NCBI GenBank assembly: GCA_965200425.1
Contig: CBDAUA010000001.1
Location: 304,812 to 368,811 of the forward strand
DNA from: Arenicellales bacterium
GTDB taxonomy: Bacteria > Pseudomonadota > Gammaproteobacteria > Arenicellales > JAJDZL01
DNA length: 64,000 nt
Direction: 5' to 3'
Shown: positions 20,815 to 37,453 of the stretch, one piece after another
Numbering within the stretch: position 1 is the first letter of the stretch
How the letters are laid out: every line of letters starts with the position of its first letter
Notes under the pieces: model-generated
Seen by the model: only the letters and a program-made list of their open reading frames with translations
Database searches by the model: none
Told to the model about the DNA's origin: nothing
Position numbers and translations under genes: made by a program

Positions 20815-20831
20815 CGATCAAGTCATCCTAG

Positions 20832-22222: not shown

Positions 22223-22252
22223 ATGAATTGACCCATAATGAATTGACCCATA
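22223..22252. repeat. Two tandem copies of a 15-bp unit, ATGAATTGACCCATA
   Basis: The unit was read directly at 22223..22237 and 22238..22252, in the spacer between puuD and the first GmrSD-like gene. Confidence 0.9.
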
Positions 22253-22324
22253 GTTACTTAAAAATTTAACGAATTTAAGACATATATCTGTGTTTGATTG
22301 CAACTTTTTCCGAAGCCTCCTCGG

Positions 22325-22343
22325 ATTGACTAAGCGAGTCAAT
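22325..22343. promoter_or_regulatory. 19-bp palindrome ATTGACT-N5-AGTCAAT upstream of GmrSD-like copy 1 (candidate operator/promoter element)
   Basis: The arms are perfect 7-bp inverted repeats with spacer AAGCG, ending 85 nt upstream of the ATG. The left arm contains the -35-like hexamer TTGACT. Confidence 0.45.
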
Positions 22344-22428
22344 TTCTCAATTCCGTAAATTGTTGGTTCAATAGCATTAAATTAGAGTCAAACTGACGTA
22401 TGAACAATTAAAAACTACAGATCATGCC

Positions 22429-24519
22429 ATGAAAGTAAATTTAACTAGTTTCCTTAATCTCCTGAAGCAATCTCCTCAGTTCGTGGTTCCAATCTATCAA
22501 CGTAACTATAGCTGGACGAATCGAGAATGCGAACAGTTGTGGGACGATATCCTACGCACCGGCAAAGACGATGACATCAAAGCTCACTTCACTGGCTCAA
22601 TTGTCTACAGCCAAGACGGGATCTGTCATTTAACAAGTTTGGCATCATTGCTCGTCATCGACGGCCAACAACGCATCACGACGATTATGCTCATCATTGA
22701 AGCTTTGGCAAGACACATGGAAGTTGAGGAGCCTAGGAAAGCGCTTAAGCTGCGCCACAATTACCTCTTTAACCATTTGGAAAAAGGAGAGAATCGATTC
22801 AAACTGCTGCTGACAGAAACAGACAAAGAGAGCCTGTTTGCACTGTTGGAGCAAAAATCTCTGCCGGATAATCATTCCCACCGAATTAAAGAGAATTTCA
22901 AACTATTCAAGATGTGGGTAAGCCAACTCGATTCTACAAAAATCTCGTCACTTCACAAAGGCCTAGAGAAACTTACGATCGTTGACATCTCGCTGGACCG
23001 AAGTCACGACAACCCACAGCTCATCTTCGAAAGCATCAATTCGACTGGCCATGATTTAAGCCAAGCTGACTTGATACGCAACTTCGTTCTAATGAGGCTG
23101 GAGCCAGAAAAACAAAGGAATCTCTACGAAGAACACTGGCGCCCGATGGAAAATGCCTTCGGGCAGAAAGCCACAAATACTGGTTTCGACAGTTACATGA
23201 GGTACTATTTGACATTCAGAACAGGTGTTCTTCCAAACGCTGAGAAAGTATATGAGGCGTTTAAGGCCTACGCTAACTCTACTGGGAAGCTGAAAAACGA
23301 TGTGGATGCCCTCGTCAAAGACATCCACACTTACGCGAACTACTACTGCGCGATGGCTCTCGACCAGGAACATGACGACCAGCTAGCTTTAGTGTTTCAG
23401 GATCTCAGAGGACTGAAGGTGAACGCAAGCTTTCCCTTCCTGCTAAAGTTATACGGAGACTACAAGAATGAGTATCTCTCGAAAGAAGACTTTATTAAAG
23501 CTGTAAGATTGGTAGAAGCCTACGTTTTCCGACGAGCAGTGTGCAAAATCTCCACGCAATTGCTACCCGAAGTCTTCGAAAACATCGCAGGCATACTCAA
23601 AGAAAATTACGACATTCAAAGCATAGAAGCGCATTTTCTTGGACTAAGAACTTATAGACGCTTTCCCAGAAACCAGGAATTCAAGATCGCGCTCCGTATG
23701 CGCGATCTTTACAGTAACCGACAACGCTGTAAATACTTGTTTCGTCGTCTGGAGAATTACGAGCGTAAAGAACCAGTACCAGTACATGAGTACGCTATCG
23801 AACACATCATGCCCCAAAACGAGAACCTGTCATCGCAGTGGCGTAAAGCACTTGGCAAAGAGTGGAAAATGATTCAGAAGGATAATCTACATACTCTAGG
23901 CAACCTCACACTAGCCGGCTACAATTCAGAGTACAGTGATCATTTCTTCTTGAAGAAGCGCGACATGGAAGGTGGATTCAAAGAGAGTCCATTACGGTTG
24001 AATAAAGGGCTCAGCAAACTTGACACTTGGAATGAAAAAATAATTGAGCAACGCGCTGAAGAACTTGCGAATAAAGCTGTGCAAGTCTGGAGACTACCGG
24101 CGGGGAACGTACTGGATGACAATGGCACAAATGACACCAAAGGCGATTATCCCCTTGAAGATCACCCGAATTTGGCTACCGGCAGTCCGACACGACTGTT
24201 ATTCGATGAAATTCAAAAAGCTGTATTGGCACTTTACCCGGGTATTGACATGAAGTTTCAAAAGCACTATATCTCATTTGATGCTGAGACTAGAATTGTA
24301 GACTTAGTTCCGCAAAAGAAATCCCTACAGTTGTGTATTAACTTGCCGTTCCATGAACTAAATGACCCTAGAGGAATAGCTACTGATGTGTCAAATCTTG
24401 GTCACTTGGGTGTCGGAGATGTGCGCGTCAACCTCGATGATTTAGACGATGTTCGCTACGTTATGAGTTTGGTGAGCCAAGCGTTTGAAAATCAAATAAG
24501 CGATGAGATTATTGAATAA
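22429..24519 (+). CDS. GmrSD-like type IV (modification-dependent) restriction nuclease paralog 1: DUF262 (ParB/NTPase-like) + DUF1524 (His-Me finger) + conserved C-terminal domain
   Basis: The ORF is 696 aa. DUF262 motifs are VVPIYQRNYSW and VIDGQQRIT. DUF1524 motifs are AIEHIMPQN and LHTLGNLTLAGYNSEYS. The ~110-aa C-terminal domain (LFDEIQKAVLAL...GVGDVRVNLDDLDDVRYVMSLVSQAFENQ) resembles, from memory, the small domain annotated DUF5655 on restriction-related proteins. This is the most divergent of the five copies. Confidence 0.85.
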   Translation: MKVNLTSFLNLLKQSPQFVVPIYQRNYSWTNRECEQLWDDILRTGKDDDIKAHFTGSIVYSQDGICHLTSLASLLVIDGQQRITTIMLIIEALARHMEVEEPRKALKLRHNYLFNHLEKGENRFKLLLTETDKESLFALLEQKSLPDNHSHRIKENFKLFKMWVSQLDSTKISSLHKGLEKLTIVDISLDRSHDNPQLIFESINSTGHDLSQADLIRNFVLMRLEPEKQRNLYEEHWRPMENAFGQKATNTGFDSYMRYYLTFRTGVLPNAEKVYEAFKAYANSTGKLKNDVDALVKDIHTYANYYCAMALDQEHDDQLALVFQDLRGLKVNASFPFLLKLYGDYKNEYLSKEDFIKAVRLVEAYVFRRAVCKISTQLLPEVFENIAGILKENYDIQSIEAHFLGLRTYRRFPRNQEFKIALRMRDLYSNRQRCKYLFRRLENYERKEPVPVHEYAIEHIMPQNENLSSQWRKALGKEWKMIQKDNLHTLGNLTLAGYNSEYSDHFFLKKRDMEGGFKESPLRLNKGLSKLDTWNEKIIEQRAEELANKAVQVWRLPAGNVLDDNGTNDTKGDYPLEDHPNLATGSPTRLLFDEIQKAVLALYPGIDMKFQKHYISFDAETRIVDLVPQKKSLQLCINLPFHELNDPRGIATDVSNLGHLGVGDVRVNLDDLDDVRYVMSLVSQAFENQISDEIIE

Positions 24520-24545
24520 TAAACTTTGACGAAAGAGCAAGGTTA

Positions 24546-24554
24546 CCCCCCCCC
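24546..24554. repeat. C9 homopolymer tract in the copy 1 / copy 2 spacer
   Basis: The sequence reads GGTTACCCCCCCCCGACAAG here. The equivalent position in the other spacers reads GGTTAAAACCCTCGACAAG. Confidence 0.9.
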
Positions 24555-24613
24555 GACAAGAAAACGTAAGTTTTTTTTGGCGTATGCAGCTCGAAAACCC
24601 ACAATTTCTACGG

Positions 24614-24632
24614 ATTGACTAATAGAGTCAAT
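24614..24632. promoter_or_regulatory. Palindrome ATTGACT-N5-AGTCAAT upstream of copy 2
   Basis: The arms are identical to those upstream of copy 1, with spacer AATAG. TAAATT follows 15 nt after TTGACT. Confidence 0.45.
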
Positions 24633-24716
24633 TTCTAAATTCTTTAAATTGTTGTCTCAATAGCATTTAATTAGAGCCAAACTTATGAATGAATAATTAG
24701 AACTCCAGAGCATGCT

Positions 24717-26807
24717 ATGAAAGCTAATGAAACTAGTTTCCTTAATCTCCTGAAGCAGTCTCCTCAGTTCGTGGTTCCAATCTATCAGCGTACCTATAGT
24801 TGGATGAAGCGAGAATGCGAGCAATTGTGGAACGATATCCTACGCACCGGCAAAGACGATGACATCAAAGTTCACTTCACTGGCTCTATCGTCTACATCC
24901 AAGACGGGCTGTATAACGTAACCAATATGTCACAACTGCTCGTCATTGACGGTCAACAACGCCTAACGACGATTATGCTCATCATTGAAGCATTGGCAAG
25001 ACACTATGACGGTGATGAACCTAGGAAAGCGAACAAGCTGCGTCACTATTACCTCCTTAACCATTTGGAAGACGGAGAGAGTCGATTCAAACTGCTGCTG
25101 ACAGAAACAGACAAGGAGAGCCTGCTTGCACTGTTGGAGCAAAAATCTCTGCCGGATTATCATTCCTATCGGATTAAAGAGAATTTCAGTCTGTTCAAGA
25201 ATTGGATAGGCCAACTCGATCCCATAGAAACCTCGTCACTTCATAAAGGCCTAGAGAAACTTACGATCGTTGACATCTCGCTGGACCGAAGTCACGACAA
25301 TCCACAGCTCATCTTCGAAAGCATGAATTCCACTGGCCGTGATTTAAGCCAAGCTGACTTGATCCGTAATTTCGTTCTAATGGGACTGGAGCCAGCAAAA
25401 CAAAAGTACCTCTACAAAGAACACTGGCGTCCGATGGAAAACACCTTCGGACAGAAAGCAATAAATACTGAATTCGACAGTTACATGAGGTACTATTTGA
25501 CATTCAGAACAGGTATTCTTCCAAACGTTAAGAAAGTATATGAGTCGTTTAAGGCCTACGCGAACTCTTCTGAGAAGCCGAATAACGATGTGGATGCCCT
25601 CGTCAAAGACATCCACACTTACGCGAACTACTACTGCGCGATGGCCCTCGACCAGGAACATGACGACCAACTAGCCTTAGTGTTTCAGGATCTCAGAGGA
25701 CTGAAGGTGAACGCAAGCTTTCCCTTCCTGCTAAAGCTATACGGAGACTACAAGAACGAACACCTCTCGAAAGAAGACTTTATCAGAGCTGTGAGATTAG
25801 TAGAAGCCTACGTTTTCCGACGAGCAGTGTGTGAAATCCCCACGAAAATGCTGCCAAAAATCTTCGAAAACATCGTGCGTACACTCAAAGAGATTTGCGA
25901 CATTCAAACCATAGAAGCACATTTTTTTGGTCTAAGAACTTATAGACGCTTTCCCAGAGACGACGAATTCAAGAACGCACTTCGTACGCGCGATCTTTAC
26001 AATAATCCGAAACGCTGCAAATACTTGTTTCGTCGTCTAGAGAATTACGAGCGTAAAGAAGCAGTACCAGTACATGAGTACACTATCGAACACATCATAC
26101 CCCAAAACGAGAATCTGTCATCGCAGTGGCGAAAAGCACTTGGCGAGGAGTGGGAAACGATTCAGAAGGAATATCTACATACTCTAGGTAACCTCACACT
26201 GACTGGCTACAATTCAGAGTACAGTGATCATTCCTTCTCGAAAAAGCGCGACATGGTCGGCGGATTCAAAGAGAGCCCATTACGTTTGAATAAAGGGCTC
26301 GGTAAACTTGACACTTGGAATGAAGAAATAATTAAGCAACGCGCTGAAGAACTTGCGAATAAGGCTGTGCAAGTCTGGAGGCTACCGGCGGGGAACGTAC
26401 TGGATGACAATGGCACCAATGGCACCTATGACTATCGTTCCGTTGAAGATTACCGGTTTTTGGCTGCCGGCAGTCAAACACGACGGTTATTCGATGAAAT
26501 TCGAAAAGCCATATTGGCACTTGACCCGGGCATTAACATGAAGTTTCTAAAGAGTTACATCTCATTTAGAGCTGAAACTAGTATTGTAAACGTAGTTCCA
26601 CAAATGAATCGCCTACAGTTGTATATTAACTTGCCGTTCCACGAACTAAATGACCCTAGAGGAATAGCTATTGATGTAACAAATCTTGGTCACTGGGGTG
26701 TCGGAGATGTGCGCGTATACCTCGATGATTTAGACGATGTTCGCTACGTTATGAGTTTGGTGAGCCAAGCGTTTGAAAATCAAATAAGCGATGGGATTAT
26801 TGAATAA
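24717..26807 (+). CDS. GmrSD-like type IV restriction nuclease paralog 2
   Basis: The ORF is 696 aa. All motifs are retained (VVPIYQRTYSW, VIDGQQRLT, TIEHIIPQN, LGNLTLTGYNSEYS). Confidence 0.85.
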   Translation: MKANETSFLNLLKQSPQFVVPIYQRTYSWMKRECEQLWNDILRTGKDDDIKVHFTGSIVYIQDGLYNVTNMSQLLVIDGQQRLTTIMLIIEALARHYDGDEPRKANKLRHYYLLNHLEDGESRFKLLLTETDKESLLALLEQKSLPDYHSYRIKENFSLFKNWIGQLDPIETSSLHKGLEKLTIVDISLDRSHDNPQLIFESMNSTGRDLSQADLIRNFVLMGLEPAKQKYLYKEHWRPMENTFGQKAINTEFDSYMRYYLTFRTGILPNVKKVYESFKAYANSSEKPNNDVDALVKDIHTYANYYCAMALDQEHDDQLALVFQDLRGLKVNASFPFLLKLYGDYKNEHLSKEDFIRAVRLVEAYVFRRAVCEIPTKMLPKIFENIVRTLKEICDIQTIEAHFFGLRTYRRFPRDDEFKNALRTRDLYNNPKRCKYLFRRLENYERKEAVPVHEYTIEHIIPQNENLSSQWRKALGEEWETIQKEYLHTLGNLTLTGYNSEYSDHSFSKKRDMVGGFKESPLRLNKGLGKLDTWNEEIIKQRAEELANKAVQVWRLPAGNVLDDNGTNGTYDYRSVEDYRFLAAGSQTRRLFDEIRKAILALDPGINMKFLKSYISFRAETSIVNVVPQMNRLQLYINLPFHELNDPRGIAIDVTNLGHWGVGDVRVYLDDLDDVRYVMSLVSQAFENQISDGIIE

Positions 26808-26900
26808 TAAACTTTGACGAAAGAGCAAGGTTAAAACCCTCGACAAGAAAACGTAGGTTCTTTTTGGCGTATGCAGCTCGAAAACCCACAATTTCTACGG

Positions 26901-26919
26901 ATTGACTAATCGAGTCAAT
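26901..26919. promoter_or_regulatory. Palindrome ATTGACT-N5-AGTCAAT upstream of copy 3
   Basis: The arms are identical to the other copies, with spacer AATCG. Confidence 0.45.
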
Positions 26920-27003
26920 TTCTAAATTCTGTAAATTGTTGGTTCAATAGCATTAAATAAGAGCCAAACTTACGAATGAATAATTAGAACTCCAGAGCAT
27001 GCC

Positions 27004-29088
27004 ATGAAAGCTAATGAAACTAGTTTCCTTAATCTCCTGAAGCAGTCTCCTCAGTTCGTGGTTCCAATCTATCAGCGTACCTATAGTTGGACGAAGCGAG
27101 AATGCGAGCAGTTATGGAACGATATCCTACGCACCGGCAAAGACGATGACATCAAAGCTCACTTCACGGGCTCTATCGTCTACATCCAAGACGGGCTCTA
27201 TAACGTAACGAATATGTCTCAATTGCTCGTCATCGACGGCCAACAACGCCTCACGACAGTTATGCTTATCCTTGAAGCTTTGGCAAGACACTTTGAAGGT
27301 GATGAGTCCAAGAAAGCGGTTAAGCTTCGCCACTATTACCTCCTTAACAATTTGGAAGAGGGAGAGAGTCGATTCAAACTGCTGCTGACAGAAACAGACA
27401 AGGAGAGCCTGCTTGCACTGTTGGAGCAAAATTCTCTTCCGGATAACCACTCCCACCGAATTAAAGAGAATTTCAGACTAATCAAGAAGTGGGTAAGCCA
27501 ACTCGATTCCACAAAAATCTCGTCACTTCACAAAGGCCTGGAGAAACTTACGATCGTTGACATCTCGCTGGACCGAAGTCACGACAACCCACAGCTCATC
27601 TTCGAAAGCATGAATTCGACTGGCCGTGATTTAAGCCAAGCTGACTTGATCCGTAATTTCGTTCTAATGGGACTGGAGCCAGAAAAACAAAAGTACCTCT
27701 ACAAAGAACACTGGCGTCCGATGGAAAACACCTTCGGACAGAAAGCCATAAATACTGATTTCGACAGTTACATGAGGCACTATTTGACATTCAGAACAGG
27801 TGTTCTTCCAAGCGTTAAGAAAGTATATGAGGCGTTTAAGGCCTACGCGAACTCTTTTGAGAAGCAAAAAAACGACGTAGATGCTCTCGTCAAAGACATC
27901 CACACCTACGCGAACTACTACTGCGCGATGGCTCTCGACCAGGAACATGACGACCAGCTAGCTTTAGTGTTTCGGGATCTCAGAGAACTGAAGGTGAACG
28001 CAAGCTTTCCCTTCCTGCTAAAGTTATACGGAGACTACAAGAATGAGTATCTCTCGAAAGAAGACTTTATCAAAGCTGTAAGATTGGTAGAAGCTTATGT
28101 TTTCCGACGAGCAGTGTGTGAAATGCCTACGACAACGCTGCCCAAACTCTTCGAAAACATCGTGCGTACACTCAAAGAAAATTGCGACATTCAAAGCATA
28201 GAGTCACTATTTTTTGGACTACGAACTTATAGACGCTTTCCCAGAGACGACGAATTCAAGAACGCGCTTCGAACGCGCGATCTTTACAATAACCCAAAAC
28301 GCTGTAAATACATTTTTCGTCGTCTGGAGAATTACGAGCGTAAAGAACCGGTACCAGTACATGAGTACACTATCGAACATATCATGCCCCAAAACGAGAA
28401 CCTGTCATCGCAGTGGCGTAAAGCACTTGGTCAAGATTGGGAAATGATTCAGAAGGATTATCTACATACTCTAGGTAACCTCACACTGGCCGGCTACCCT
28501 TCAGATTACAGTGATCGTTCCTTCTTGGAAAAACGCGACAAGGAAGGTGGATTCAGAAAGAGCCAGCTACGGTTGAATAAAGGGCTCAGTAATCTTGACA
28601 CTTGGAATGAAGAATCAATTTTGCAACGCGCTGAAGAACTTGCGAATAAAGCTGCGCAAGTCTGGACATTACCAGCAGGGAGCGTACTGGATGAAATTGA
28701 CACCTATCGCACCTATGACTATCGTTCCGGTTACCGGTTTTTGGATACCGCCAGTCCAACACGACGATTGTTCGATGAAATTCGAAAAGCCGTATTGGCA
28801 CTTGACCCGGGCATTGACATGAAGTTACAAGCACGCTACATCTCATTTGATGCTGAGACTAGAATTGTAGACTTGGTTCCACTACAGAAATGCTTACGGT
28901 TGTATATTAACTTGCCGTTCCACGAACTAAATGACCCTAGAGGAATAGCTATTGATGTAACAAATCTTGGTCGCTGGTGTATCGGAGAAGTGCGCGTCAA
29001 CCTCGATGATTTAGACGATGTTCGCTACGTTATGAGTTTGGTGAGCCAAGCGTTTGAAAATCAAATAAGCGATGGGATTATTGAATAG
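27004..29088 (+). CDS. GmrSD-like type IV restriction nuclease paralog 3
   Basis: The ORF is 694 aa. The motifs are retained (VVPIYQRTYSW, VIDGQQRLT, TIEHIMPQN, LGNLTLAGYPSDYS). Confidence 0.85.
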   Translation: MKANETSFLNLLKQSPQFVVPIYQRTYSWTKRECEQLWNDILRTGKDDDIKAHFTGSIVYIQDGLYNVTNMSQLLVIDGQQRLTTVMLILEALARHFEGDESKKAVKLRHYYLLNNLEEGESRFKLLLTETDKESLLALLEQNSLPDNHSHRIKENFRLIKKWVSQLDSTKISSLHKGLEKLTIVDISLDRSHDNPQLIFESMNSTGRDLSQADLIRNFVLMGLEPEKQKYLYKEHWRPMENTFGQKAINTDFDSYMRHYLTFRTGVLPSVKKVYEAFKAYANSFEKQKNDVDALVKDIHTYANYYCAMALDQEHDDQLALVFRDLRELKVNASFPFLLKLYGDYKNEYLSKEDFIKAVRLVEAYVFRRAVCEMPTTTLPKLFENIVRTLKENCDIQSIESLFFGLRTYRRFPRDDEFKNALRTRDLYNNPKRCKYIFRRLENYERKEPVPVHEYTIEHIMPQNENLSSQWRKALGQDWEMIQKDYLHTLGNLTLAGYPSDYSDRSFLEKRDKEGGFRKSQLRLNKGLSNLDTWNEESILQRAEELANKAAQVWTLPAGSVLDEIDTYRTYDYRSGYRFLDTASPTRRLFDEIRKAVLALDPGIDMKLQARYISFDAETRIVDLVPLQKCLRLYINLPFHELNDPRGIAIDVTNLGRWCIGEVRVNLDDLDDVRYVMSLVSQAFENQISDGIIE

Positions 29089-29181
29089 TAAACTTTGACG
29101 AAAGAGCAAGGTAAAACCCTCGACAAGAAAACGTAGGTTTCTTTTTGGCGTATGCAGCTCGAAAACCCACAATTTCTACGG

Positions 29182-29200
29182 ATTGACTAATCGAGTCAAT
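29182..29200. promoter_or_regulatory. Palindrome ATTGACT-N5-AGTCAAT upstream of copy 4
   Basis: The arms are identical to the other copies, with spacer AATCG. Confidence 0.45.
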
Positions 29201-29284
29201 TTCTAAATTCTGTAAATTGTTGGTTCAATAGCATTAAATTAGAGTCAAACTTACGAATGAACAATTAGAACTCCAGAGCATGCA

Positions 29285-31384
29285 ATGAAAGCAAATGAAA
29301 CTAGTTTCCTTAATCTCCTAAAGCAGTCTCCTCAGTTCGTGGTTCCAATCTATCAACGAACCTATAGTTGGACGAAGCGAGAATGCGAGCAGTTATGGAA
29401 CGATATCCTACGCACCGGCAAAGACGATGACATCAAAGCTCACTTCACTGGCTCTATCGTCTACATCCAAGACGGGCTCTATAACGTAACGAATATGTCT
29501 CAATTGCTCGTCATCGACGGCCAACAACGCCTCACGACGATCATGCTCATCCTTGAAGCTTTGGCAAGACACATTGAAGGTAATGAGCCTAAGAAAGCGG
29601 TTAAGTTGCGCCGCTATTACCTCCTTAACGACTTGGAAGATGGAGAGAGTCGATTCAAACTGCTGTTGACAGAAACAGATAAGGAGAGCCTGCTTGCACT
29701 GTTGGAGCAAAAATCTCTGCCGGATAACCATTCCTACCGGATTAAAGAGAATTTCAGACTATTCAAGAATTGGGTAGGAAAACTCGATTCCACAAAAATT
29801 TCATCACTTCACAAAGGCCTAGAGAAACTTACGATCGTTGACATCTCGCTGGACCGAAGTCACGACAACCCACAGCTCATCTTCGAAAGCATGAATTCGA
29901 CTGGCCGTGATTTAAGCCAAGCTGACTTGATCCGCAATTTCGTTCTAATGGGACTGGAGCCAGAAAAACAAAAGAACCTCTACAAAGAACACTGGCGTCC
30001 AATGGAAAACACCTTCGGGCAGAAAGCCATAAACACTAATTTCGACAGTTACATGAGGTACTATTTGACATTCAGAACAGGTGTCCTTCCAAGAGTTAAG
30101 AAAGTATATGAGGCGTTTAAGGACTACGCTAACTCCTTTGAGAAGCTGAAAAACGATGTGGATGCCCTCGTCAAAGACATCCACACTTACGCGAACTACT
30201 ACTGCGCGATGGCTCTCGACCAGGAACATGACGACAAACTAGCTATAGTGTTTCGGGATCTCAGAGGACTGAAGGTGAACGCAAGCTTTCCCTTCCTGCT
30301 AAAGCTATACGGAGACTACAAGAACGAGCATCTCTCGAAAGAAGACTTTATCAAAGCTGTCAGATTGGTAGAAGCGTATGTTTTCCGACGAGCAGTGTGT
30401 GAAATCCCCACGACTACGATGCCCAAACTCTTCGAGAACATCGTGCGTACACTTAAAGAAAATTGCGACATTCAAAGCATAGAGTCACTATTTTTTGGAC
30501 TACGAACTTATAGACGCTTTCCCAGAGACGACGAATTCAAGAACGCGCTTCGTACGCGCGATCTTTACAATAACCCAAAACGCTGCAAATACTTGTTACA
30601 TCGTCTGGAGAATTACGAGCGTAAAGAACCAGTACCAGTACATGAGTACACTATCGAACACATCATGCCCCAAAACGAGAATCTGTCATCGCAGTGGCGT
30701 AAAGCCCTTGGCGAAGAGTGGGAAATGATTCAGAAGGATTATCTACATACTCTAGGTAACCTCACACTGACTGGCTACAATTCAGAGTACAGTGATCATT
30801 CCTTCTTGGAAAAGCGCGACATGGAAGGTGGATTCAAAGAGAGCCCATTGCGGTTGAATAAAGGGATCGGTAAACTTGACACTTGGAATGAAGAAACAAT
30901 TAAGCAACGCGCTGAAGAACTTGCGAATAAGGCTATGCAAGTCTGGAGACTACCGGCGGGGAACGTACTGGATGACAATGGCACCGAAGGCTCCAATGCC
31001 ATCTATGAAAATCGTTCCGTTGAAGACTACCGGTTTTTGGCTACCGGCAGTCCAACACGACTGTTGTTCGATGAGATTCAAAAAGCCGTATTGGCACTTG
31101 ACCCGGGCATTGACATGGTGTTACTAAAGACCCACGTTTCATTTAGAGCTGAGAGTAGTATTGTCGACGTAGTTGCACAAATGAATCGCCTACAGTTGTA
31201 TATTAACTTGCCGTTCCATGAACTAAATGACCCTCGAGGAATAACTTATGATGTAACAAATGTTGGTCACTGGGGTGTCGGAGATGTGCGCGTCAACCTC
31301 GATGATTTAGACGATATTCGCTACGTTATGAGTTTGGTGAGCCAAGCGTTTGAAAATCAAATAAGCGATGGGATTATTGAATAA
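29285..31384 (+). CDS. GmrSD-like type IV restriction nuclease paralog 4
   Basis: The ORF is 699 aa. The motifs are retained (VVPIYQRTYSW, VIDGQQRLT, TIEHIMPQN, LGNLTLTGYNSEYS). Confidence 0.85.
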   Translation: MKANETSFLNLLKQSPQFVVPIYQRTYSWTKRECEQLWNDILRTGKDDDIKAHFTGSIVYIQDGLYNVTNMSQLLVIDGQQRLTTIMLILEALARHIEGNEPKKAVKLRRYYLLNDLEDGESRFKLLLTETDKESLLALLEQKSLPDNHSYRIKENFRLFKNWVGKLDSTKISSLHKGLEKLTIVDISLDRSHDNPQLIFESMNSTGRDLSQADLIRNFVLMGLEPEKQKNLYKEHWRPMENTFGQKAINTNFDSYMRYYLTFRTGVLPRVKKVYEAFKDYANSFEKLKNDVDALVKDIHTYANYYCAMALDQEHDDKLAIVFRDLRGLKVNASFPFLLKLYGDYKNEHLSKEDFIKAVRLVEAYVFRRAVCEIPTTTMPKLFENIVRTLKENCDIQSIESLFFGLRTYRRFPRDDEFKNALRTRDLYNNPKRCKYLLHRLENYERKEPVPVHEYTIEHIMPQNENLSSQWRKALGEEWEMIQKDYLHTLGNLTLTGYNSEYSDHSFLEKRDMEGGFKESPLRLNKGIGKLDTWNEETIKQRAEELANKAMQVWRLPAGNVLDDNGTEGSNAIYENRSVEDYRFLATGSPTRLLFDEIQKAVLALDPGIDMVLLKTHVSFRAESSIVDVVAQMNRLQLYINLPFHELNDPRGITYDVTNVGHWGVGDVRVNLDDLDDIRYVMSLVSQAFENQISDGIIE

Positions 31385-31753
31385 TAAACTTTGACGAAAG
31401 AGCAAGGTTAAAACCCTCGACAAGAAAACGTAGGCTTTTCTGGCGTACGCAGCTCGAAAATTATTTCACATTGACACATCGATCAATTCGTCGAAGGCAG
31501 GTTTCCACTCCATTTCAACTCACACATAGATCGGGTCATTCGTACATTGCCTGATTTCGTAGGACCACTATCTTATGTCGGTGTGAAGTTAATAGAGCGG
31601 ATACGATTTAGAAATGTCCACTCGTACTCATGTGGCAACTTTATAGTCTCGTAACTAGCCCACCAATTTGCCATAAATCGCACGTTGTAAAGTAATTTAC
31701 TCCCTAAATTGAATTTGCCTCTGACTGCTATCGGGTGCAAAAATAGATTAATT
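31385..31753. repeat. ~370-bp conserved 3' tail, copy A (paralogous to 34053..34413)
   Basis: It can be aligned by eye to 34053..34413 with scattered substitutions and small indels. Only its first ~80 nt are present after copies 1-3. Confidence 0.9.
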
Positions 31754-31910
31754 TTTTGTTGAGACTTTGCAAGTGATATAAGTTCCAATAAAAATACGAT
31801 AGATAATAAATGAATCCAACTTACTTGAATATTTCGTGTGAGTTAGTCCTACCCTTAATATCCCGTTGTGTGAATCCCAAACGTTTCTCTAAGACTCAAA
31901 AATACATTGG
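31754..31910. repeat. Copy of the island's right-flank sequence (paralogous to 37298..37453)
   Basis: TTTTTGTTGAGACTTTGCAAGTGA...ACGATAGATAATAAATGAATCCAACTTACTTGAATATTTCGTGTGAGTTAGTC...CCCAAACGTTTCT aligns with TTTTTGGGACATTGCAAGTGA...ACGATAGAGAATAAATGAATCCAACTTACTTGGATATTTCGTGTGATTTAGTC...CCCAAACGTTTCT. Confidence 0.85.
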
Positions 31911-31952
31911 ATTCAAAATTACGAATGAACAATTAGAATTCCAGAGTAGGCC

Positions 31953-34052
31953 ATGAAAGCAAATGACGCTAGTTTCCTTAGTCTCCTGAAGCAATCTCTT
32001 CAGTTCGTGGTTCCAATCTATCAACGTGCCTATAGTTGGACGGAGCGGGAATGCGGGCAGTTGTGGGACGATATCCTACGCACCGGCAAAGACGATGACA
32101 TGAAATCTCACTTTATTGGCTCTATCGTCTACATCCAAGACGGGATCTATCGTGCAACAAAAATGTCACAATTGCTTGTAATTGACGGCCAACAACGCCT
32201 CACGACAATCATGCTCATCCTTGAAGCTTTGGCAAAACACATTGAAGGTAATGAGCCTAAGAAAGGGATTGAGCTGCGCCACGATTACCTACTTAACCAT
32301 TTGGAAGTTGGAGAGAGTCGATTCAAACTGCTGCTGACAGAAACAGACAAGGATAGCCTGCTTGCAATATTGGAGCAAAAATCTCTACCGGATAACCATT
32401 CCCACCGGATTAAAGAGAATTTCAAACTATTCAAGAAGTGGGTAGGCAAACTCGATTCCACAAAAATTTCATCACTTCACAATGGCCTAGAGAAACTTAC
32501 GATCGTTGACATCTCGCTGGACCGAAGTCACGACAACCCACAGCTCATCTTCGAAAGCATGAATTCGACTGGCCGTGATTTAAGCCAAGCTGACTTGATC
32601 CGCAATTTCGTTCTAATGGGACTGGAGCCAGAAAAACAAAAGAACCTCTACAAAGAACACTGGCGTCCGATGGAAAATGCCTTCGGGCAGAAGGCCATAA
32701 ATACTGATTTCGACAGTTACATGAGGTACTATTTGACGTTCAGAACAGGTGTTCTTCCAAGAGTTAAGAAAGTATACGAGGCATTTAAGGCCTACGCGAA
32801 TTTTTCTGGGAAGCTGAAAAATGATGTGGATGCCCTCGTCAAAGACATCCACACTTACGCGAACTACTACTGCGCGATGGCTCTCGACCAGGAACATGAC
32901 GACAAACTAGCTTTAGTGTTTCGGGATCTCAGAGGACTGAAGGTGAATGCAAGCTTTCCCTTCCTGCTAAAGCTATACGGAGACTACAAGAATGAGCATC
33001 TCTCGAAAGAAGACTTTATCAAAGCTGTGAGATTGGTAGAAGCATATGTTTTCCGACGAGCAGTGTGTGAATTCCCCACGAAATCGCTACCCAAAGTCTT
33101 CGAAAACATCGGGTATACACTCAAAGAAAATTGTGACATTCAAAGCATAGAAGAACTTTTTTTTGGACTAAGAACTTATAGACGATTTCCTAGAGACGAC
33201 GAATTCAAGAACGCGCTTCGTACGCGCGAGCTTTACAATAACCCAAAACGCTGTAAATACTTGTTACGTCGTCTAGAGAATTACGGGCGTAAAGAACCAG
33301 TACCAGTACACGAGTACACTATCGAACACATCATGCCTCAAAATGAGAATCTGTCATCGCAGTGGCGAAAAGCACTTGGCAAAGAGTGGGAAAAGATTCA
33401 GAAGGATTATCTACATACTCTAGGTAACCTCACACTGACCGGCTACAATTCAGAGTACAGTGATCATTTCTTCTTGGAAAAGCGCGACATGGAAGGTGGA
33501 TTCAAAGAGAGCCCATTACGGTTGAATAAAGGGCTCGGTAAACTTGACACTTGGAATGAAGAAACAATTAAGCAACGCGCTGAAGAACTTGCGAATAAGG
33601 CTGTGCAAGTCTGGAGACTACCGGCGGGGAACGTACTGGATGACAATGGTACCGAAGGCTCCAATGCCATCTATGAATATCGTGCCGTTGAAGATTACAA
33701 GTTTTTGGCTACCGGCAGTCCAACACGACTGTTATTCGATGAAATTCAAAAAGCCGTATTGGCACTTGACCCGGGAATTGACAGGAAGTTCCATACGCGC
33801 TACGTCTCATTTGATGCTGAAACTAGAATTGTAGACTTAGTTCCACTAAAGAAATGCCTACGATTGTATATTAACGTACCGTTCCATGAACTAAATGATC
33901 CTAGAGGAATAGGTATTGATGTGACAAATCGTCATACCTATGGTGTCGGAGATGTGCGCGTCAACCTCGATGATTTAGACGATGTTCGCTACGTTATGAG
34001 TTTGGTAAACCAAGCGTTTGAAAATCAAATTAGCGATGGAATTATTGAATAA
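31953..34052 (+). CDS. GmrSD-like type IV restriction nuclease paralog 5
   Basis: The ORF is 699 aa. The motifs are retained (VVPIYQRAYSW, VIDGQQRLT, TIEHIMPQN, LGNLTLTGYNSEYS). This copy lacks the upstream palindrome. Confidence 0.85.
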   Translation: MKANDASFLSLLKQSLQFVVPIYQRAYSWTERECGQLWDDILRTGKDDDMKSHFIGSIVYIQDGIYRATKMSQLLVIDGQQRLTTIMLILEALAKHIEGNEPKKGIELRHDYLLNHLEVGESRFKLLLTETDKDSLLAILEQKSLPDNHSHRIKENFKLFKKWVGKLDSTKISSLHNGLEKLTIVDISLDRSHDNPQLIFESMNSTGRDLSQADLIRNFVLMGLEPEKQKNLYKEHWRPMENAFGQKAINTDFDSYMRYYLTFRTGVLPRVKKVYEAFKAYANFSGKLKNDVDALVKDIHTYANYYCAMALDQEHDDKLALVFRDLRGLKVNASFPFLLKLYGDYKNEHLSKEDFIKAVRLVEAYVFRRAVCEFPTKSLPKVFENIGYTLKENCDIQSIEELFFGLRTYRRFPRDDEFKNALRTRELYNNPKRCKYLLRRLENYGRKEPVPVHEYTIEHIMPQNENLSSQWRKALGKEWEKIQKDYLHTLGNLTLTGYNSEYSDHFFLEKRDMEGGFKESPLRLNKGLGKLDTWNEETIKQRAEELANKAVQVWRLPAGNVLDDNGTEGSNAIYEYRAVEDYKFLATGSPTRLLFDEIQKAVLALDPGIDRKFHTRYVSFDAETRIVDLVPLKKCLRLYINVPFHELNDPRGIGIDVTNRHTYGVGDVRVNLDDLDDVRYVMSLVNQAFENQISDGIIE

Positions 34053-34413
34053 TAATCTTTGACGAAAGAGCAAGGTTAAAACTCTCGACAAGAAAACGTA
34101 GGCTTCTCTGGCGTACGCAGCTCGAAAATTATTTCACATCGATCAATTCGTGGAAGGTAGGCTTCAACTCCATTCGAATTTACAGATAGATCAGGTCATT
34201 CGTACATTGCCTGATCTCGTAGGACCACAAGCTTAAGTTGGAGCGGAGTAAATAGAGCGGATACGATTTAGGGATATCTACTCGAACTCATGTGGCAACT
34301 ATATAGTCTCGTACCTAGCCCACCAATTTGCCATAAATCGCATGTTGTAAAGTAATTTACTCCCTAAGTTCAATTTGCCTCTGACTGCTGTCCGGTGCAA
34401 AAATAAATTAATT
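34053..34413. repeat. ~360-bp conserved 3' tail, copy B
   Basis: It is paralogous to 31385..31753. The homology breaks at about 34414..34420, where the R-M/IS segment begins. Confidence 0.9.
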
Positions 34414-34787
34414 CTGGGGATGCGTCTATCTTAACAGGGTCGTTATTTTTCAATTCTTTTGGAGGCTTAGGTTTCATTAGTTCATCACCTTCACAAAAGT
34501 TAAGTTTTGAACTATCGTGCATTCTATTCAAAATTACCTGATGGCTAGTGAAGCAGCAGGTTGTTTCGTTGATTCTCTCGAATAACCCGATTCAATCGAC
34601 TCTGTTCAACTCTTGTTGGTGTTTGTTCACTAGGACTAATAGAAGAAGTTAGTTTAAGCATTGCTCTTGCCTTATATGGCATTCCCTCGTAATAAATTTA
34701 ATGGCAATTGGAAAAGAGTATCAATTTTAATAGAGCATCCTTAATATTTGAAAGAGTCGGTAAATTCGCCTTCTTGGTGTCTTTTGC

Positions 34788-35492
34788 TTATATTAGGGCA
34801 GCTTCACTTGAATCAACATTTAATTCAATCTCATCAGCAGTAAGATGATAATACCCACTTTGGAAATTCTGAATCGAAATTTTTCCTTTCTCTCCTGAAA
34901 TAGATTCGCTAGTTTGAACAAACGAACTCTCCCTACACTGAGCTTTTCTTGCAAATTCACTAGAAATTTTTTTGAAATCTTCAGGAGTATTAAATTTTAT
35001 TTCTATTAACCTAATTGCCGACATATGCGAGGACATTTCAACTCCGAGTTTACTTTCTAAATGAGCATAAGATTCAATCGCTTTGAATGCCAGTGATTTC
35101 CCCGTAATCTGCTCATAATTCCAATGTAATGCACTAGATCTGAATGAGATCAAACGGCTTAATTGATTAGAGAGATGATTCAAATCGAAAACTTGATTTG
35201 TAATCTTGCCTTCTCTGGAACTTACAGATGCATAATCATAGTAAGAAAGTATTACATACACTTCAAGAAGACTGATAAAGGAAACTGTATCCCACTGTAG
35301 CCAATCTCGGTCACCATTTTTACCTTCATCTTTTACGATTGGAATGATGGTAACTTTTCTAATACTTGAGTTTAGCGAATCGTAAACTCTGGCAAATGGG
35401 AACGACCTTGTTCTTTTTGGAGAAACCCACTTGCTTGCTGAAAACATTTGACTTTCTCCATCAGTAAATATGAAATTTGATTTGCCTTGCAT
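34788..35492 (-). CDS. Putative type II restriction endonuclease (assigned by position only)
   Basis: This 234-aa ORF lies 96 bp downstream of, and is co-oriented with, the DNA methyltransferase gene. I could not recognise a catalytic motif with confidence. Confidence 0.4.
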   Translation of the reverse strand: MQGKSNFIFTDGESQMFSASKWVSPKRTRSFPFARVYDSLNSSIRKVTIIPIVKDEGKNGDRDWLQWDTVSFISLLEVYVILSYYDYASVSSREGKITNQVFDLNHLSNQLSRLISFRSSALHWNYEQITGKSLAFKAIESYAHLESKLGVEMSSHMSAIRLIEIKFNTPEDFKKISSEFARKAQCRESSFVQTSESISGEKGKISIQNFQSGYYHLTADEIELNVDSSEAALI

Positions 35493-35588
35493 GTCTTGAA
35501 GATTTCTTATATCTACTTTCGGGGATATTTGAACGGCAAAGTGTAGGCGAATAGACTACTTTTTGTATTGACCCAAGAAGTTTTATTG

Positions 35589-36440
35589 TCATTTTTTGCT
35601 TACCTGCCTTTCAATCAATTCCAGTTGAACATCATCTTCAAGTAAATCAATATTCCTATTCAGTTTACCGAGCCCAAGTTCATTTACAATCGTCTCTTGC
35701 AACTCATACTTAATCTCTATTCCTATGCTGTTTCTGCCTAACTTACTTGCAACTTTCATAGTGGTACCACTTCCAGCAAAAGGATCTAAAACGGTTTCAC
35801 CCTTATATGAAAATAACGAAATTATTCGATAAGGTAATTCCTCTGGAAATGCAGCTATGCCTTTCTCAAATTTCGAATTGGGGATTACATTGGTCATTTC
35901 CCAGAGTGTCTTGTACCATCCATTTGCCTGAAATTCTTTCAATTCCACTTTGGAAGAATTTTTTTCATCAACGCTCTTGGATTTGTAGTTGAATCGGTTT
36001 TTTTGAAAAATTAATATGCTTTCTAGCAAGTTATCTGGATAAAAATACATCGGGTATGGATGCTGTAGCATTACTCCACTTCGACCCCTAATGCGCAAGT
36101 ACCCATCTGGTTTTTTCCAGATGATTCGATCTCTATACCTAAACCCAGCACCTTGAAATATCTTAGTAGCATCTGCTACGATCGGATATTTTTCTCCTTT
36201 CACCAGCATGTCATCTATATTTACAACAGCGACTCGTCCATCCTGTAAAACTCTGAATGTTTCTTTCGCAAAACTTTCTATCAACTCAAGATAAGATTCG
36301 TAACTTGAAAATAGCTCCTCGTAATCATACGGAGCATTGAAGTACGGTGGTGAAGTAAGCATGAGATGAACTGATTCATCTTCAATCTCAACCATAGAAG
36401 CACAATCACCAATTATTAGCTTGTGATGGGTAGATTTCAT
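35589..36440 (-). CDS. DNA methyltransferase, beta-class N4-cytosine / N6-adenine (N-4/N-6 DNA methylase family)
   Basis: Catalytic motif IV SPPY (LMLTSPPYFNAPYD) lies near the N-terminus. The AdoMet motif I (LDPFAGSGTTMKVA) lies near the C-terminus. This is the circular permutation typical of beta-class amino-methyltransferases. Confidence 0.85.
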   Translation of the reverse strand: MKSTHHKLIIGDCASMVEIEDESVHLMLTSPPYFNAPYDYEELFSSYESYLELIESFAKETFRVLQDGRVAVVNIDDMLVKGEKYPIVADATKIFQGAGFRYRDRIIWKKPDGYLRIRGRSGVMLQHPYPMYFYPDNLLESILIFQKNRFNYKSKSVDEKNSSKVELKEFQANGWYKTLWEMTNVIPNSKFEKGIAAFPEELPYRIISLFSYKGETVLDPFAGSGTTMKVASKLGRNSIGIEIKYELQETIVNELGLGKLNRNIDLLEDDVQLELIERQVSKK

Positions 36441-36575
36441 CTCAACAAAAGTATTTCATTATCGAATCTAGGTTCAGTGACAGTATTTGCTTGTTCTATT
36501 TGATCACGTGTGTCTTTCAGGGAAATCACAAAAAATCTTGTGTCGTATTTCTTTCGTGTTTGAGACAGAATACCT

Positions 36576-37192: not shown

Positions 37193-37297
37193 CTGATTGC
37201 ATGGGTAATTGTAACAGATTATCTATAATAAATCAATAAGTTAGTCGACTTATATTCCAATTTTAAGAAACAGGTATATAACTTACAATTCCTCTGA

Positions 37298-37453
37298 TAT
37301 TTTTTGGGACATTGCAAGTGAATTAACTCTCGATAAACATACGATAGAGAATAAATGAATCCAACTTACTTGGATATTTCGTGTGATTTAGTCATACCTT
37401 TAAAATCCCATTCTGTGAAACCCAAACGTTTCTTTACGACTTAGAAATTCAAT
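37298..37453. repeat. Right-flank sequence of the island (paralogous to 31754..31910)
   Basis: See the feature at 31754..31910. Confidence 0.85.

What the first reader, a model, noticed from the sequence alone, without database searches (positions are those of the whole stretch)
22429..34052. Patchwork relationships between copies along the gene, a signature of gene conversion or shuffling
Which copies resemble each other changes along the gene. Near residues 60-75, copies 2, 3 and 4 share YIQDGLYNVTNMSQLL. Copy 5 has YIQDGIYRATKMSQLL and copy 1 has YSQDGICHLTSLASLL. Around residue 400, copies 3 and 4 share SIESLFFGLRTY, while copies 1 and 2 have IEAHF[LF]GLRTY. In the C-terminal domain the grouping alternates along the array. 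Copies 1, 3 and 5 share SFDAETRIVDLVP, copies 2 and 4 share SFRAE[TS]SIV[ND]VV[PA]QMNRLQLYIN, and copies 3 and 5 share KCLRLYIN. At the DNA level, long perfectly identical stretches alternate with dense clusters of substitutions. One such cluster covers the codons for residues ~96-106, H[MYFI][EDI][VG][EDN]E[PS][RK]KA... This pattern fits repeated segmental exchange between array members rather than simple stepwise duplication and drift. The array may therefore act as a self-shuffling diversity generator.
Basis: seen in the sequence. Interest (0 to 1): 0.6.

Follow-up and report, generated by a model that had tools for sequence, protein, structure and literature searches.

The report
Five shuffled restriction-enzyme gene copies
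A bacterial chromosome carries five intact, about 10% diverged, head-to-tail copies of one anti-phage restriction enzyme gene, and these copies have swapped short segments with each other by ordinary recombination; this arrangement was not seen at 271 other places holding the family, and nothing points to a dedicated shuffling machine.

Summary
Window 22429-34052 has five intact tandem genes of 694-699 aa, 89-92% identical in DNA. Each has the GmrSD/DndI-type architecture of a type IV restriction enzyme (DUF262, DUF1524/HNH, C-terminal DUF5655).

No single tree fits: the best 5-taxon topology conflicts with 63 of 92 informative sites. Conflicting sites cluster in space (PHI p<=0.0002; breakpoint segmentation p~0.003; four triplets at p<=0.0008 in a 3SEQ-like test on informative sites only). 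Simulations without recombination did not reproduce this.

Spacer anatomy gives an independent two-phase duplication history: a 2668-nt unit first, then a 2288-nt unit. The gene mosaics cut across that history.

The "dense substitution clusters" are mostly patches of amino-acid change (dN/dS 0.72 against 0.23 elsewhere, with similar dS). They reflect uneven selection, not imported DNA. All copies keep their catalytic motifs and open reading frames.

Exchange looks old and sporadic. dS is about 0.2 for every pair and the longest identical pairwise run is 185 nt. The copies are direct repeats, and the 64-kb window holds no recombinase, reverse transcriptase or silent cassettes. "Self-shuffling diversity generator" is therefore not supported as a mechanism.

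None of 160 related genomic or metagenomic loci, nor any of 111 plasmid records, holds a tandem array of this family.

The parts
22429..24519 (+). Copy 1 (696 aa), the most divergent copy. It has 87 unique nucleotide states, 60 nonsynonymous and 27 synonymous.
   Evidence: ORF; Pfam GmrSD_N 1.7e-35, GmrSD_C 2.8e-25, DUF5655 2.2e-13; singleton counts
24717..26807 (+). Copy 2 (696 aa). Its C-terminal sheet is 'type B', shared with copy 4.
27004..29088 (+). Copy 3 (694 aa), a mosaic. The 5' two thirds group with copies 2 and 4; the 3' third groups with copies 1 and 5. Window 28489-28743 is a copy-specific divergent stretch (19 nonsynonymous, 6 synonymous singletons).
29285..31384 (+). Copy 4 (699 aa), alternately closest to its two physical neighbours. 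It is copy-3-like at 29297-29538 and 30414-30552, and copy-5-like at 29816-30000 (185 nt identical) and 30770-30981.
31953..34052 (+). Copy 5 (699 aa), the only copy with the long upstream spacer. Its C-terminal sheet is 'type A', shared with copies 1 and 3.
24520..24716 (+). Short spacer 1-2 (197 nt): the first 76 nt of the gene's 3' flank plus a ~120-nt leader. It carries a C9 run at 24546-24554.
26808..27003 (+). Short spacer 2-3, 97.9% identical to spacer 3-4.
29089..29284 (+). Short spacer 3-4.
31385..31952 (+). Long spacer 4-5 (568 nt), in three parts. D369 (31385-31753) is 90% identical to 34053-34413. R152 (31755-31906) is 84% identical to 37300-37451. The last ~45 nt are the leader shared with the other copies. 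It is the junction of the first duplication, whose unit was 2668 nt.
22322..22428 (+). Leader upstream of copy 1, homologous to the 3' 107 nt of the short spacers (84-92% identity).
34053..34413 (+). 3' flank of copy 5; second copy of D369.
37300..37451 (+). Second copy of R152, just upstream of the AMP-ligase gene. It marks the original right edge of the duplicated unit.
34414..37299 (-). Later insertion that splits D369 from R152. It holds a type II restriction enzyme (34788-35492), a methyltransferase (35589-36440) and an IS1595 transposase fragment (36773-37192). GC is 36-38%.
31125..31187 (+). In copy 4 coordinates (alignment nt 1841-1903): a cluster of 10 sites splitting copies 1, 3, 5 from copies 2, 4. 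It includes a whole-codon difference (AGA against GAT). It lies in strands 1-4 of the DUF5655 domain.
31247..31291 (+). In copy 4 coordinates (residues 655-669): the most strongly nonsynonymous patch (pN 0.19, pS 0.05). It covers a loop motif that reads GRWGN across the wider family.

Best explanation
The locus is a lineage-specific five-fold tandem amplification of one defence gene. The gene encodes a single-chain GmrSD/DndI-type, type IV (modification-sensing) restriction endonuclease with an extra C-terminal DUF5655 (YjbR-like) domain.

Shown:
- The array grew in two phases. A 2668-nt unit was duplicated first and left the long 4-5 spacer. A shorter 2288-nt unit was then amplified and gave copies 1-4.
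- A type II restriction-modification module with an IS fragment was inserted later, behind copy 5.
- The copies have since exchanged segments of roughly 50-300 nt, so which copies are nearest relatives changes along the gene.

Inferred:
- The exchange is ordinary RecA-type homologous recombination between misaligned direct repeats, that is, unequal crossing-over that creates hybrid copies plus short-tract gene conversion. It is sporadic and not programmed.
- Selection keeps all five copies functional. It tolerates or favours amino-acid change in a few patches, above all the linker and the DUF5655 domain.
- The cell therefore expresses five enzyme variants that may differ in which modified phage DNA they recognise or which phage inhibitor proteins they escape.
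For: Identity of the gene:
- Pfam GmrSD_N, GmrSD_C and DUF5655 match all five copies.
- PADLOC Orf5 8.5e-192 and HEC-06.
- PDB DndI 9jfl by sequence at 7.7e-11 and by fold at 4.6e-11; BrxU 7p9m by fold; the C-terminal domain resembles YjbR 2fki.
- The DGQQR, EHIxPQN and HTLGNLTL motifs are invariant in all copies.

Recombination:
- PHI p<=0.0002.
- 63 of 92 informative sites conflict with the best tree, and segmentation gives p~0.003.
- Maximal-segment tests for copies 3-4 and 4-5 give global p 0.0003.
- The informative-only triplet test gives p 0.0004-0.0008.

Duplication history: spacer dissection.

Selection:
- Whole-gene dN/dS is 0.27-0.48.
- Variable patches have dN/dS 0.72 against 0.23 elsewhere, with equal pS.
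- Under neutrality each copy would be expected to carry 5-10 nonsense substitutions; none has any.
- The paralogues vary at 20% of columns that are nearly invariant in 50 homologues, for example residues 374-382 and 661-665.

Lineage specificity:
- Nothing more than 63% identical exists outside this array among 5.8 billion proteins.
- 160 related loci and 111 plasmid records hold a single copy each.
- The same site in relatives has no such gene.

Arms-race rationale: phage proteins IPI and TifA inhibit GmrSD-family enzymes by direct binding, and one residue change alters the pairing (PMC11322646).
Against: - Positive selection is not demonstrated. Only small patches exceed dN/dS 1, on few sites. 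Copy 1 (60 nonsynonymous to 27 synonymous unique changes) and the 3' part of copy 3 look close to neutral, which also fits relaxed constraint.
- Synonymous-only evidence for recombination is weak (27 sites, p 0.02-0.7 depending on window).
- Even with 8 breakpoints, 32 sites remain incompatible, so homoplasy contributes substantially. Simulations show homoplasy alone can yield about 60 informative sites.
- No strain with a diverged version of the array was found, so the rate and direction of exchange are unknown.
- Expression and activity of the copies are untested.
- The structure model is mediocre (pLDDT 65.7) and no coordinates were available, so patches could be placed on secondary-structure elements only.
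Confidence: 0.65

Rival explanations
1. Neutral aftermath of a dosage amplification. The gene was amplified for higher enzyme dose, and the copies are now drifting apart under relaxed constraint with occasional recombination. There is no functional diversification.
For: - Copy 1 has 60 nonsynonymous to 27 synonymous unique changes, and copy 3 has 19 to 6 in alignment nt 1486-1755.
- The paralogues change residues that are invariant across the family.
- dN/dS in the patches is about 0.7-1, not clearly above 1.
Against: - All five reading frames are intact although 5-10 nonsense substitutions per copy are expected under neutrality.
- Catalytic motifs are invariant.
- dN/dS outside the patches is 0.23.
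- Direct repeats 90% identical would be expected to collapse by deletion if they were redundant, yet dS has reached about 0.2.
Confidence: 0.2
2. No recombination. The patchwork reflects parallel or convergent substitutions at fast or selected sites on a star-like tree.
For: - The phylogeny is star-like: 314 of 423 variable sites are singletons.
- Simulations without recombination give about 61 informative sites.
- 65 of the 92 informative sites lie in codons that change the amino acid.
Against: - Sites with the same split are clustered in space (PHI p<=0.0002, also with one site per codon).
- Ten sites in 63 nt share the 1,3,5|2,4 split, including a three-base codon difference.
- In simulated no-recombination data the PHI false-positive rate was 0.7% at p<0.01.
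- Rate patchiness biases PHI against detection, not towards it.
Confidence: 0.07
3. Programmed self-shuffling diversity generator. The array is built to reassort segments at high frequency, like hsdS shufflons or antigenic-variation cassettes.
For: - Mosaic structure.
- Variable patches concentrate in a putative recognition domain.
- One low-coverage contig shows a copy-number variant.
Against: - All copies are direct repeats and complete genes.
- There are no inverted repeats, and no recombinase, invertase or reverse transcriptase in 64 kb.
- Every pair of copies is 8-10% diverged and no tract is longer than 185 nt.
- The independent contig matches copies 1, 2 and the 5' part of copy 5, with differences consistent with read errors.
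- The variant junction uses a 4-nt microhomology out of register, not repeat homology.
Confidence: 0.04
4. Assembly artefact. Alleles of one gene from several co-occurring strains were strung together, or were chimerised, during metagenome assembly.
For: - The source appears to be a metagenome-assembled contig. Relatives are only MAGs and metagenome contigs.
- Short-read contigs of the same species end just before the array, at window 22010-22172.
Against: - Units are joined by regular spacers with an internally consistent duplication anatomy, including a unique long spacer.
- A separate contig of at least two reads reproduces copy 1, spacer, copy 2, spacer, and part of copy 5 with differences consistent with read errors.
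- Ten per cent divergence is easy for assemblers to resolve.
Confidence: 0.04
5. Obligate hetero-oligomer. The paralogues work together as mixed dimers or oligomers, as proposed for the two-gene TgvAB system. The alternating C-terminal types (copies 1, 3, 5 against 2, 4) would be complementary interfaces.
For: - DndI is a homodimer in the crystal, and homodimerisation is linked to nuclease activity in a GmrSD-family enzyme discussed in the TifA paper.
- TgvA and TgvB are both required for defence (PMC11014532).
- There are two alternating sequence types in the DUF5655 sheet.
Against: - Homologues are single-copy at 160 loci and on 111 plasmid records, so the ancestor worked alone.
- All copies keep both catalytic domains, unlike TgvA.
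- The genes are separated by 197-568 nt rather than overlapping.
Confidence: 0.08

Closest known systems
GmrSD-family type IV restriction enzymes (Eco94GmrSD, BrxU) and the related DndI and SspE nucleases
   Same: - Same DUF262 (DGQQR NTPase) plus DUF1524 (His-Me/HNH) single-chain architecture.
- Sequence and fold matches to DndI 9jfl and BrxU 7p9m.
- Located in a defence island next to a restriction-modification system.
   Different: - Known members and all 271 homologous places examined are single genes; here there are five diverged tandem copies.
- This subfamily carries an extra C-terminal DUF5655 domain.
- No dnd or ssp phosphorothioation genes lie in the window, so the DndI or SspE mode of self-recognition is not indicated.
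Phase-variable type I restriction 'shufflons' (multiple hsdS cassettes recombined by a site-specific recombinase; own knowledge of the Streptococcus pneumoniae SpnD39III and Mycoplasma pulmonis hsd loci)
   Same: A restriction system whose specificity-related sequences exist in several copies that exchange segments.
   Different: - Shufflons use inverted repeats, partial silent cassettes and a dedicated recombinase, and they switch at high frequency.
- Here the copies are complete genes in direct orientation, 8-10% diverged, with no recombinase.
Tandem immune-receptor clusters of eukaryotes, such as plant NLR clusters like RPP8 with intergenic exchange (bioRxiv 10.1101/694240, listed)
   Same: - Tandem paralogues of an immune gene.
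- Mosaic relationships from unequal crossing-over and gene conversion.
- Amino-acid variability concentrated in patches, with a conserved catalytic or signalling core.
   Different: This is a prokaryotic nuclease rather than a receptor. It is a single array in one genome, with no population data, and positive selection is not demonstrated.
TgvAB of Vibrio cholerae (two adjacent DUF262-type genes, both required; PMC11014532)
   Same: Adjacent GmrSD-like genes acting in type IV restriction.
   Different: - TgvA lacks the nuclease domain, and the two genes overlap by 8 bp and are distantly related.
- Here there are five recent paralogues, each with all domains and its own leader.

Membership tests
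GmrSD family (type IV restriction endonuclease) | N-terminal DUF262/GmrSD_N (ParB-like NTPase) domain with the DGQQR motif | tested here: met
   PF03235 E 1e-34 to 1e-37 in all five copies. D78-G-Q-Q-R82 is invariant.
GmrSD family (type IV restriction endonuclease) | C-terminal DUF1524/GmrSD_C His-Me finger (HNH) nuclease domain | tested here: met
   PF07510 E 1e-25 to 1e-30. E458-H459-I-x-P-Q-N464 and H488-T-L-G-N492 are invariant in the five copies and in 50 homologues.
GmrSD family (type IV restriction endonuclease) | Similarity to solved members | tested here: met
   phmmer to DndI 9jfl at 7.7e-11 over residues 5-554. Foldseek to 9jfl at 4.6e-11 and to BrxU 7p9m at 1.2e-3, from a model of only moderate confidence.
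GmrSD family (type IV restriction endonuclease) | NTP-stimulated cleavage of modified DNA only | not testable with these tools
   Needs biochemistry or phage challenge.
DndI/SspE-type phosphorothioate-sensing effectors | Adjacent dndBCDE or sspABCD modification genes | tested here: not met
   Most ORFs of 90 aa or more that do not lie inside a larger ORF were scanned against Pfam: 45 in all. No dnd or ssp genes were found in the 64-kb window. They could lie elsewhere in the genome.
Recombinase-driven restriction shufflon / phase-variable R-M | Inverted copies or inverted repeats that allow inversion | tested here: not met
   All five copies are on the + strand. No long inverted repeats were found in the upstream flank, the 4-5 spacer or the downstream flank.
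Recombinase-driven restriction shufflon / phase-variable R-M | Dedicated site-specific recombinase next to the cassettes | tested here: not met
   Neighbours are puuD, a type II REase, an MTase and a 139-aa IS1595 transposase fragment.
Recombinase-driven restriction shufflon / phase-variable R-M | Silent partial cassettes feeding one expressed gene | tested here: not met
   Every copy is full length with an ATG and a homologous leader.
Diversity-generating retroelement | Reverse transcriptase plus template repeat near the variable region | tested here: not met
   No reverse transcriptase among the scanned ORFs of the window.
Concerted-evolution (homogenised) tandem array | Copies kept near-identical by frequent conversion | tested here: not met
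   Pairwise DNA identity is 89.4-92.3% and dS is 0.17-0.22. Only the junction regions are more alike, at 3% against 13% differences.
TgvAB-type two-gene type IV system | Overlapping genes, one of which lacks the nuclease domain | tested here: not met
   Spacers are 196-568 nt and every copy has all three domains.

The most novel reading that the evidence does not exclude
The array is a bacterial counterpart of eukaryotic immune-gene clusters. It would be a maintained repertoire of five type IV restriction enzymes whose recognition or inhibitor-binding surfaces (the DUF5655 sheet and loop, residues 96-106 and 374-382) are diversified by selection. New combinations of these surfaces would be created by exchange between neighbouring paralogues, broadening the range of hypermodified phage DNAs restricted or defeating phage inhibitors of the IPI or TifA kind.
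Probability: 0.3. Interest if true: 0.7.

Novelty: new variant of a known kind. Interest (0 to 1): 0.45.

Why it matters
Phage-defence genes are usually thought to diversify by horizontal replacement of whole systems. This locus would be a case of in-place diversification: tandem amplification of one modification-dependent nuclease, retention of all copies, patchy amino-acid divergence and exchange between copies. That is the route known from plant and animal immune-gene clusters.

It also gives a natural panel of five closely related enzymes, together with their natural chimeras. Such a panel could be used to map which residues of the GmrSD family and of the uncharacterised DUF5655 domain set substrate or inhibitor specificity.

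Tried and rejected
- Exact-protein look-ups of copies 1 and 4 found nothing on record. The first look-up of the neighbour gene used the wrong end of a minus-strand ORF and was repeated correctly.
- The search for diverged versions of the array in related strains failed. Genome and metagenome scans gave nothing above 62% identity. The protein database holds only the window's own copies above that level. The only same-species contigs are essentially identical or stop before the array.
- The apparent variation in copy 5 of contig L081 at the residue 96-106 patch turned out to be two single-base insertions in a 2x contig, not a conversion tract.
- My first GENECONV-like and 3SEQ-like runs can be inflated by lineage-specific acceleration: unique changes in one copy make the others look alike. 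I therefore repeated the triplet test on parsimony-informative sites only and added null simulations.
- The idea that a two-gene unit was duplicated, which would explain the 1,3,5|2,4 alternation, is not backed by the spacers, which show no alternation.
- The AlphaFold model was only moderate (pLDDT 65.7; the N-terminal domain below 50 in places) and gives no coordinates, so three-dimensional clustering of the variable residues could not be tested.
- Rfam and the promoter/terminator scans of the spacers gave nothing decisive.
- Literature searches found no described tandem array of GmrSD paralogues, and only one paper mentions DUF5655.

Full report
**What is there.**
Window 22429-34052 holds five ORFs on the + strand: 22429-24519, 24717-26807, 27004-29088, 29285-31384 and 31953-34052. 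They encode proteins of 696, 696, 694, 699 and 699 aa.
- Copy 1 is 82-83% identical in protein to each of the others. Copy 4 is 82-89% identical to the others. DNA identity is 89.4-92.3%.
- Each copy matches Pfam GmrSD_N (DUF262), GmrSD_C (DUF1524) and DUF5655.
- Each copy also matches the PADLOC models Orf5 (8.5e-192) and HEC-06. The last 100 residues match PDC-S18.
- The closest solved structure is DndI (9jfl), at 7.7e-11 by sequence and 4.6e-11 by fold. BrxU (7p9m) follows by fold.
- The C-terminal domain resembles YjbR (2fki) and DUF1801 (2oc6). These fold matches come from a model of only moderate confidence, pLDDT 65.7.
- The DGQQR NTPase motif and the EHIxPQN and HTLGNLTL nuclease motifs are invariant in all five copies.

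These are therefore five complete type IV (modification-sensing) restriction endonuclease genes.

**Context.**
The array lies in a 15.4-kb insert between the urate oxidase gene puuD (20832-22043) and an AMP-dependent ligase gene (37463-38986).
- Behind the array come a type II restriction enzyme (34788-35492), its methyltransferase (35589-36440) and an IS1595 transposase fragment (36773-37192), all at 36-38% GC.
- The rest of the window is ordinary chromosomal metabolism. Most ORFs of 90 aa or more that do not lie inside a larger ORF were scanned against Pfam (45 in all). None is a recombinase, a reverse transcriptase or a dnd/ssp gene.
- The host is an uncultured gammaproteobacterium. Its XdhB is 79-81% identical to unnamed MAG proteins and 61-68% identical to the few named hits: Acidiferrobacterales and Woeseiaceae, plus a contig that labels Arenicellales.
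- In relatives with 78-79% identical XdhB, the gap next to puuD carries unrelated small ORFs and no GmrSD gene. In L092 the ligase gene bounds that gap on the far side.

**How unusual the array is.**
Outside the window's own copies, the best match among 5.8 billion proteins is 62-63% identical. The family itself is very large and spans bacteria and archaea.
- None of the 80 genome loci and 80 metagenome loci fetched with up to 10 kb of flank has a second close copy. One has a 26%-identical gene on the other strand.
- All 111 plasmid records with a match have one place each.
- The literature searches found no description of a GmrSD tandem array.

**Checking the observation.**
- At the DNA level there are 423 variable sites. 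Of these, 314 are unique to one copy and 92 are parsimony-informative, and all ten possible 2|3 splits occur.
- The best of the 15 possible five-taxon trees is incompatible with 63 of the 92 informative sites.
- That count alone proves little. Simulations without recombination but with strong rate heterogeneity also produce about 60 informative, largely homoplastic sites.

The decisive point is that sites supporting the same split lie next to each other.
- PHI permutation test: p<=0.0002 at 50- and 100-nt scales and 0.002 at 200 nt.
- PHI stays at 0.0002 with one site per codon. It is 0.02 with the 27 purely synonymous sites at the 100-nt scale.
- Optimal segmentation beats permuted site orders at every number of breakpoints from 2 to 8, with p 0.003-0.007.
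- A triplet (3SEQ-like) test restricted to informative sites gives four triplets at p 0.0004-0.0008. Copy 3 follows copies 2 and 4 in its 5' two thirds and copies 1 and 5 in its 3' third.
- Null simulations with patchy rates and lineage-specific regional acceleration gave PHI p<0.01 in 0.7% of runs. They gave at most two triplets per run at the p floor of 1/301.

The sliding-window map shows the blocks.
- Copies 3 and 4 are 96-100% identical over alignment nt 1-270 and 1126-1305.
- Copies 4 and 5 are 94-100% identical over nt 450-720 and 97-98% over nt 1441-1710.
- Copies 1, 3 and 5 group against copies 2 and 4 over nt 1841-1903. That block has ten sites, including one codon that differs at all three bases.
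- Copy 4 is thus alternately closest to its two physical neighbours.

**An independent history from the spacers.**
- Spacers 1-2, 2-3 and 3-4 are 196-197 nt. Each consists of the first 76 nt of the gene's 3' flank joined to a ~120-nt leader. That leader also precedes copy 1, at 22322-22428.
- Spacer 4-5 is 568 nt, in three parts. The first is 369 nt of 3' flank, 90% identical to 34053-34413. The second is 152 nt, 84% identical to 37300-37451, the sequence directly upstream of the ligase gene. The third is the last ~45 nt of the leader.

This fits a specific order of events. A first duplication used a 2668-nt unit running from -45 to the end of the 152-nt element. Later, a 2288-nt unit was amplified into copies 1-4. 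The restriction-modification and IS segment (34414-37299) was inserted into the last unit afterwards. On that history, copy 5 should be the outgroup of copies 1-4 along the whole gene. It is not, which again requires exchange. The noncoding duplicates (84-90% identity) date the first duplication to about the same depth as dS (0.17-0.22).

**What the 'dense clusters' are.**
- Amino-acid-variable positions are overdispersed along the gene (variance/mean 1.48). Synonymous changes are not (0.85).
- In the variable patches pN is 0.151 against 0.043 elsewhere, while pS is 0.20 against 0.17.

The clusters are therefore places where selection allows or favours amino-acid change, not stretches of imported divergent DNA.
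- The patches are residues 62-74, 94-112, 159-172, 372-383, 562-592, 607-640 and 655-669.
- Small patches in the linker and DUF5655 domain have pN/pS of 1.6-3.6, on few sites.
- The paralogues even vary at 20% of the columns that are nearly invariant in 50 homologues. Examples are the IPTNSLNKT motif at 374-382 and GRWGN at 661-665.
- Copy 1 overall (60 nonsynonymous to 27 synonymous unique changes) and copy 3 at alignment nt 1486-1755 (19 to 6) evolve close to neutrally.
- Even so, all five frames are open, although 5-10 nonsense substitutions per copy would be expected under neutrality at this depth. Outside the patches dN/dS is 0.23.

**How recent and how frequent the exchange is.**
- No pair of copies is closer than 92.3%. 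The longest pairwise identical run is 185 nt and the longest five-way run is 47 nt.
- Junction regions are more alike than gene interiors. These regions comprise the last ~190 nt of one gene, the spacer, and the first ~255 nt of the next. They show 3% against 13% differences between the 2-3 and 3-4 junctions. That fits unequal crossing-over or more recent conversion there, but also constraint on regulatory sequence.
- A separate 29.8-kb metagenome contig of the same strain (ERZ25068762, 2x coverage) reproduces copy 1, copy 2 and the first 1.5 kb of copy 5. The differences are almost all single-base indels (5 base substitutions in all), consistent with read errors. This argues against assembly chimeras for those copies and shows no fresh conversion.
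- That contig joins 26987 to 31843 through a 4-nt microhomology and so skips copies 3 and 4. This is either a rare deletion variant or a chimeric read.

**Mechanism.**
The shown steps are tandem duplication in two phases, later exchange of segments between copies, purifying selection on the catalytic core, and patchy amino-acid divergence. Two steps are inferred.
- First, the exchange is ordinary homologous recombination between misaligned direct repeats. That means unequal crossing-over that makes hybrid copies, together with short-tract gene conversion. Nothing in the locus suggests a dedicated device.
- Second, the five variants are kept because they differ in the modified DNA they recognise or in sensitivity to phage inhibitors. 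This is plausible because IPI and TifA inhibit GmrSD-family enzymes by direct binding, and a single residue change alters the pairing (PMC11322646). It is untested here.

**Verdict.**
The locus is a new arrangement of a known enzyme family, of moderate interest.

Noticed in passing
L081/L091 (ENA ERZ25068762 ctg139845_2x), junction between window 26987 and 31843: A 2x-coverage contig of the same strain goes from spacer 2-3 straight into the 4-5 spacer through a TTAG microhomology. It therefore lacks copies 3 and 4. This is either a copy-number variant in the population or a chimeric read.
   Followed up: partly
window 24546-24554: A C9 homopolymer in spacer 1-2, where the other spacers read AAAACCCT. 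The 2x contig has seven more C at this spot. It could be a slippage-prone tract upstream of copy 2 or a read error.
   Followed up: partly
window 34414-37299: A low-GC (36-38%) type II restriction-modification pair plus a 139-aa IS1595 transposase fragment. The segment sits exactly between two sequences that are contiguous in the 4-5 spacer, so it was inserted after the first duplication.
   Followed up: yes
window 22223-22252: An exact 15-nt tandem duplication, ATGAATTGACCCATA x2, in the unique sequence between puuD and the array.
   Followed up: no
window 24485-24512, 26773-26800, 29054-29081, 31350-31377, 34018-34045: A promoter-like TTGAAA-16 nt-GATTAT site with an upstream TG is conserved inside the last 35 nt of every copy (AATTAT in copy 5), pointing towards the next copy. 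This is a consensus match only.
   Followed up: no
window 41340-41681 and 43537-44271: A 113-aa ORF matches only the first half of PdxJ (profile positions 2-106 of 234). It lies 1.9 kb upstream of a full-length pdxJ, so it is a partial duplicate or remnant.
   Followed up: no
L092-L095 (relatives with 78-79% identical XdhB): The gap next to puuD (bounded by the AMP-ligase gene in L092) holds different small unannotated ORFs in relatives, so this site looks like a recurrent integration or variable spot in the lineage.
   Followed up: partly
L098 9171-10850: The only related locus with a second GmrSD-like gene. That gene is just 26% identical and on the opposite strand, so it is a different subfamily rather than a tandem duplicate.
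   Followed up: no
window 20000-22172 (contigs L082-L090): Nine short-read contigs of the same species from runs SRR33991070-98 all end between window 22010 and 22172. That is 150-300 nt before the repeat homology starts, which hints at strain variation at the island edge.
   Followed up: no
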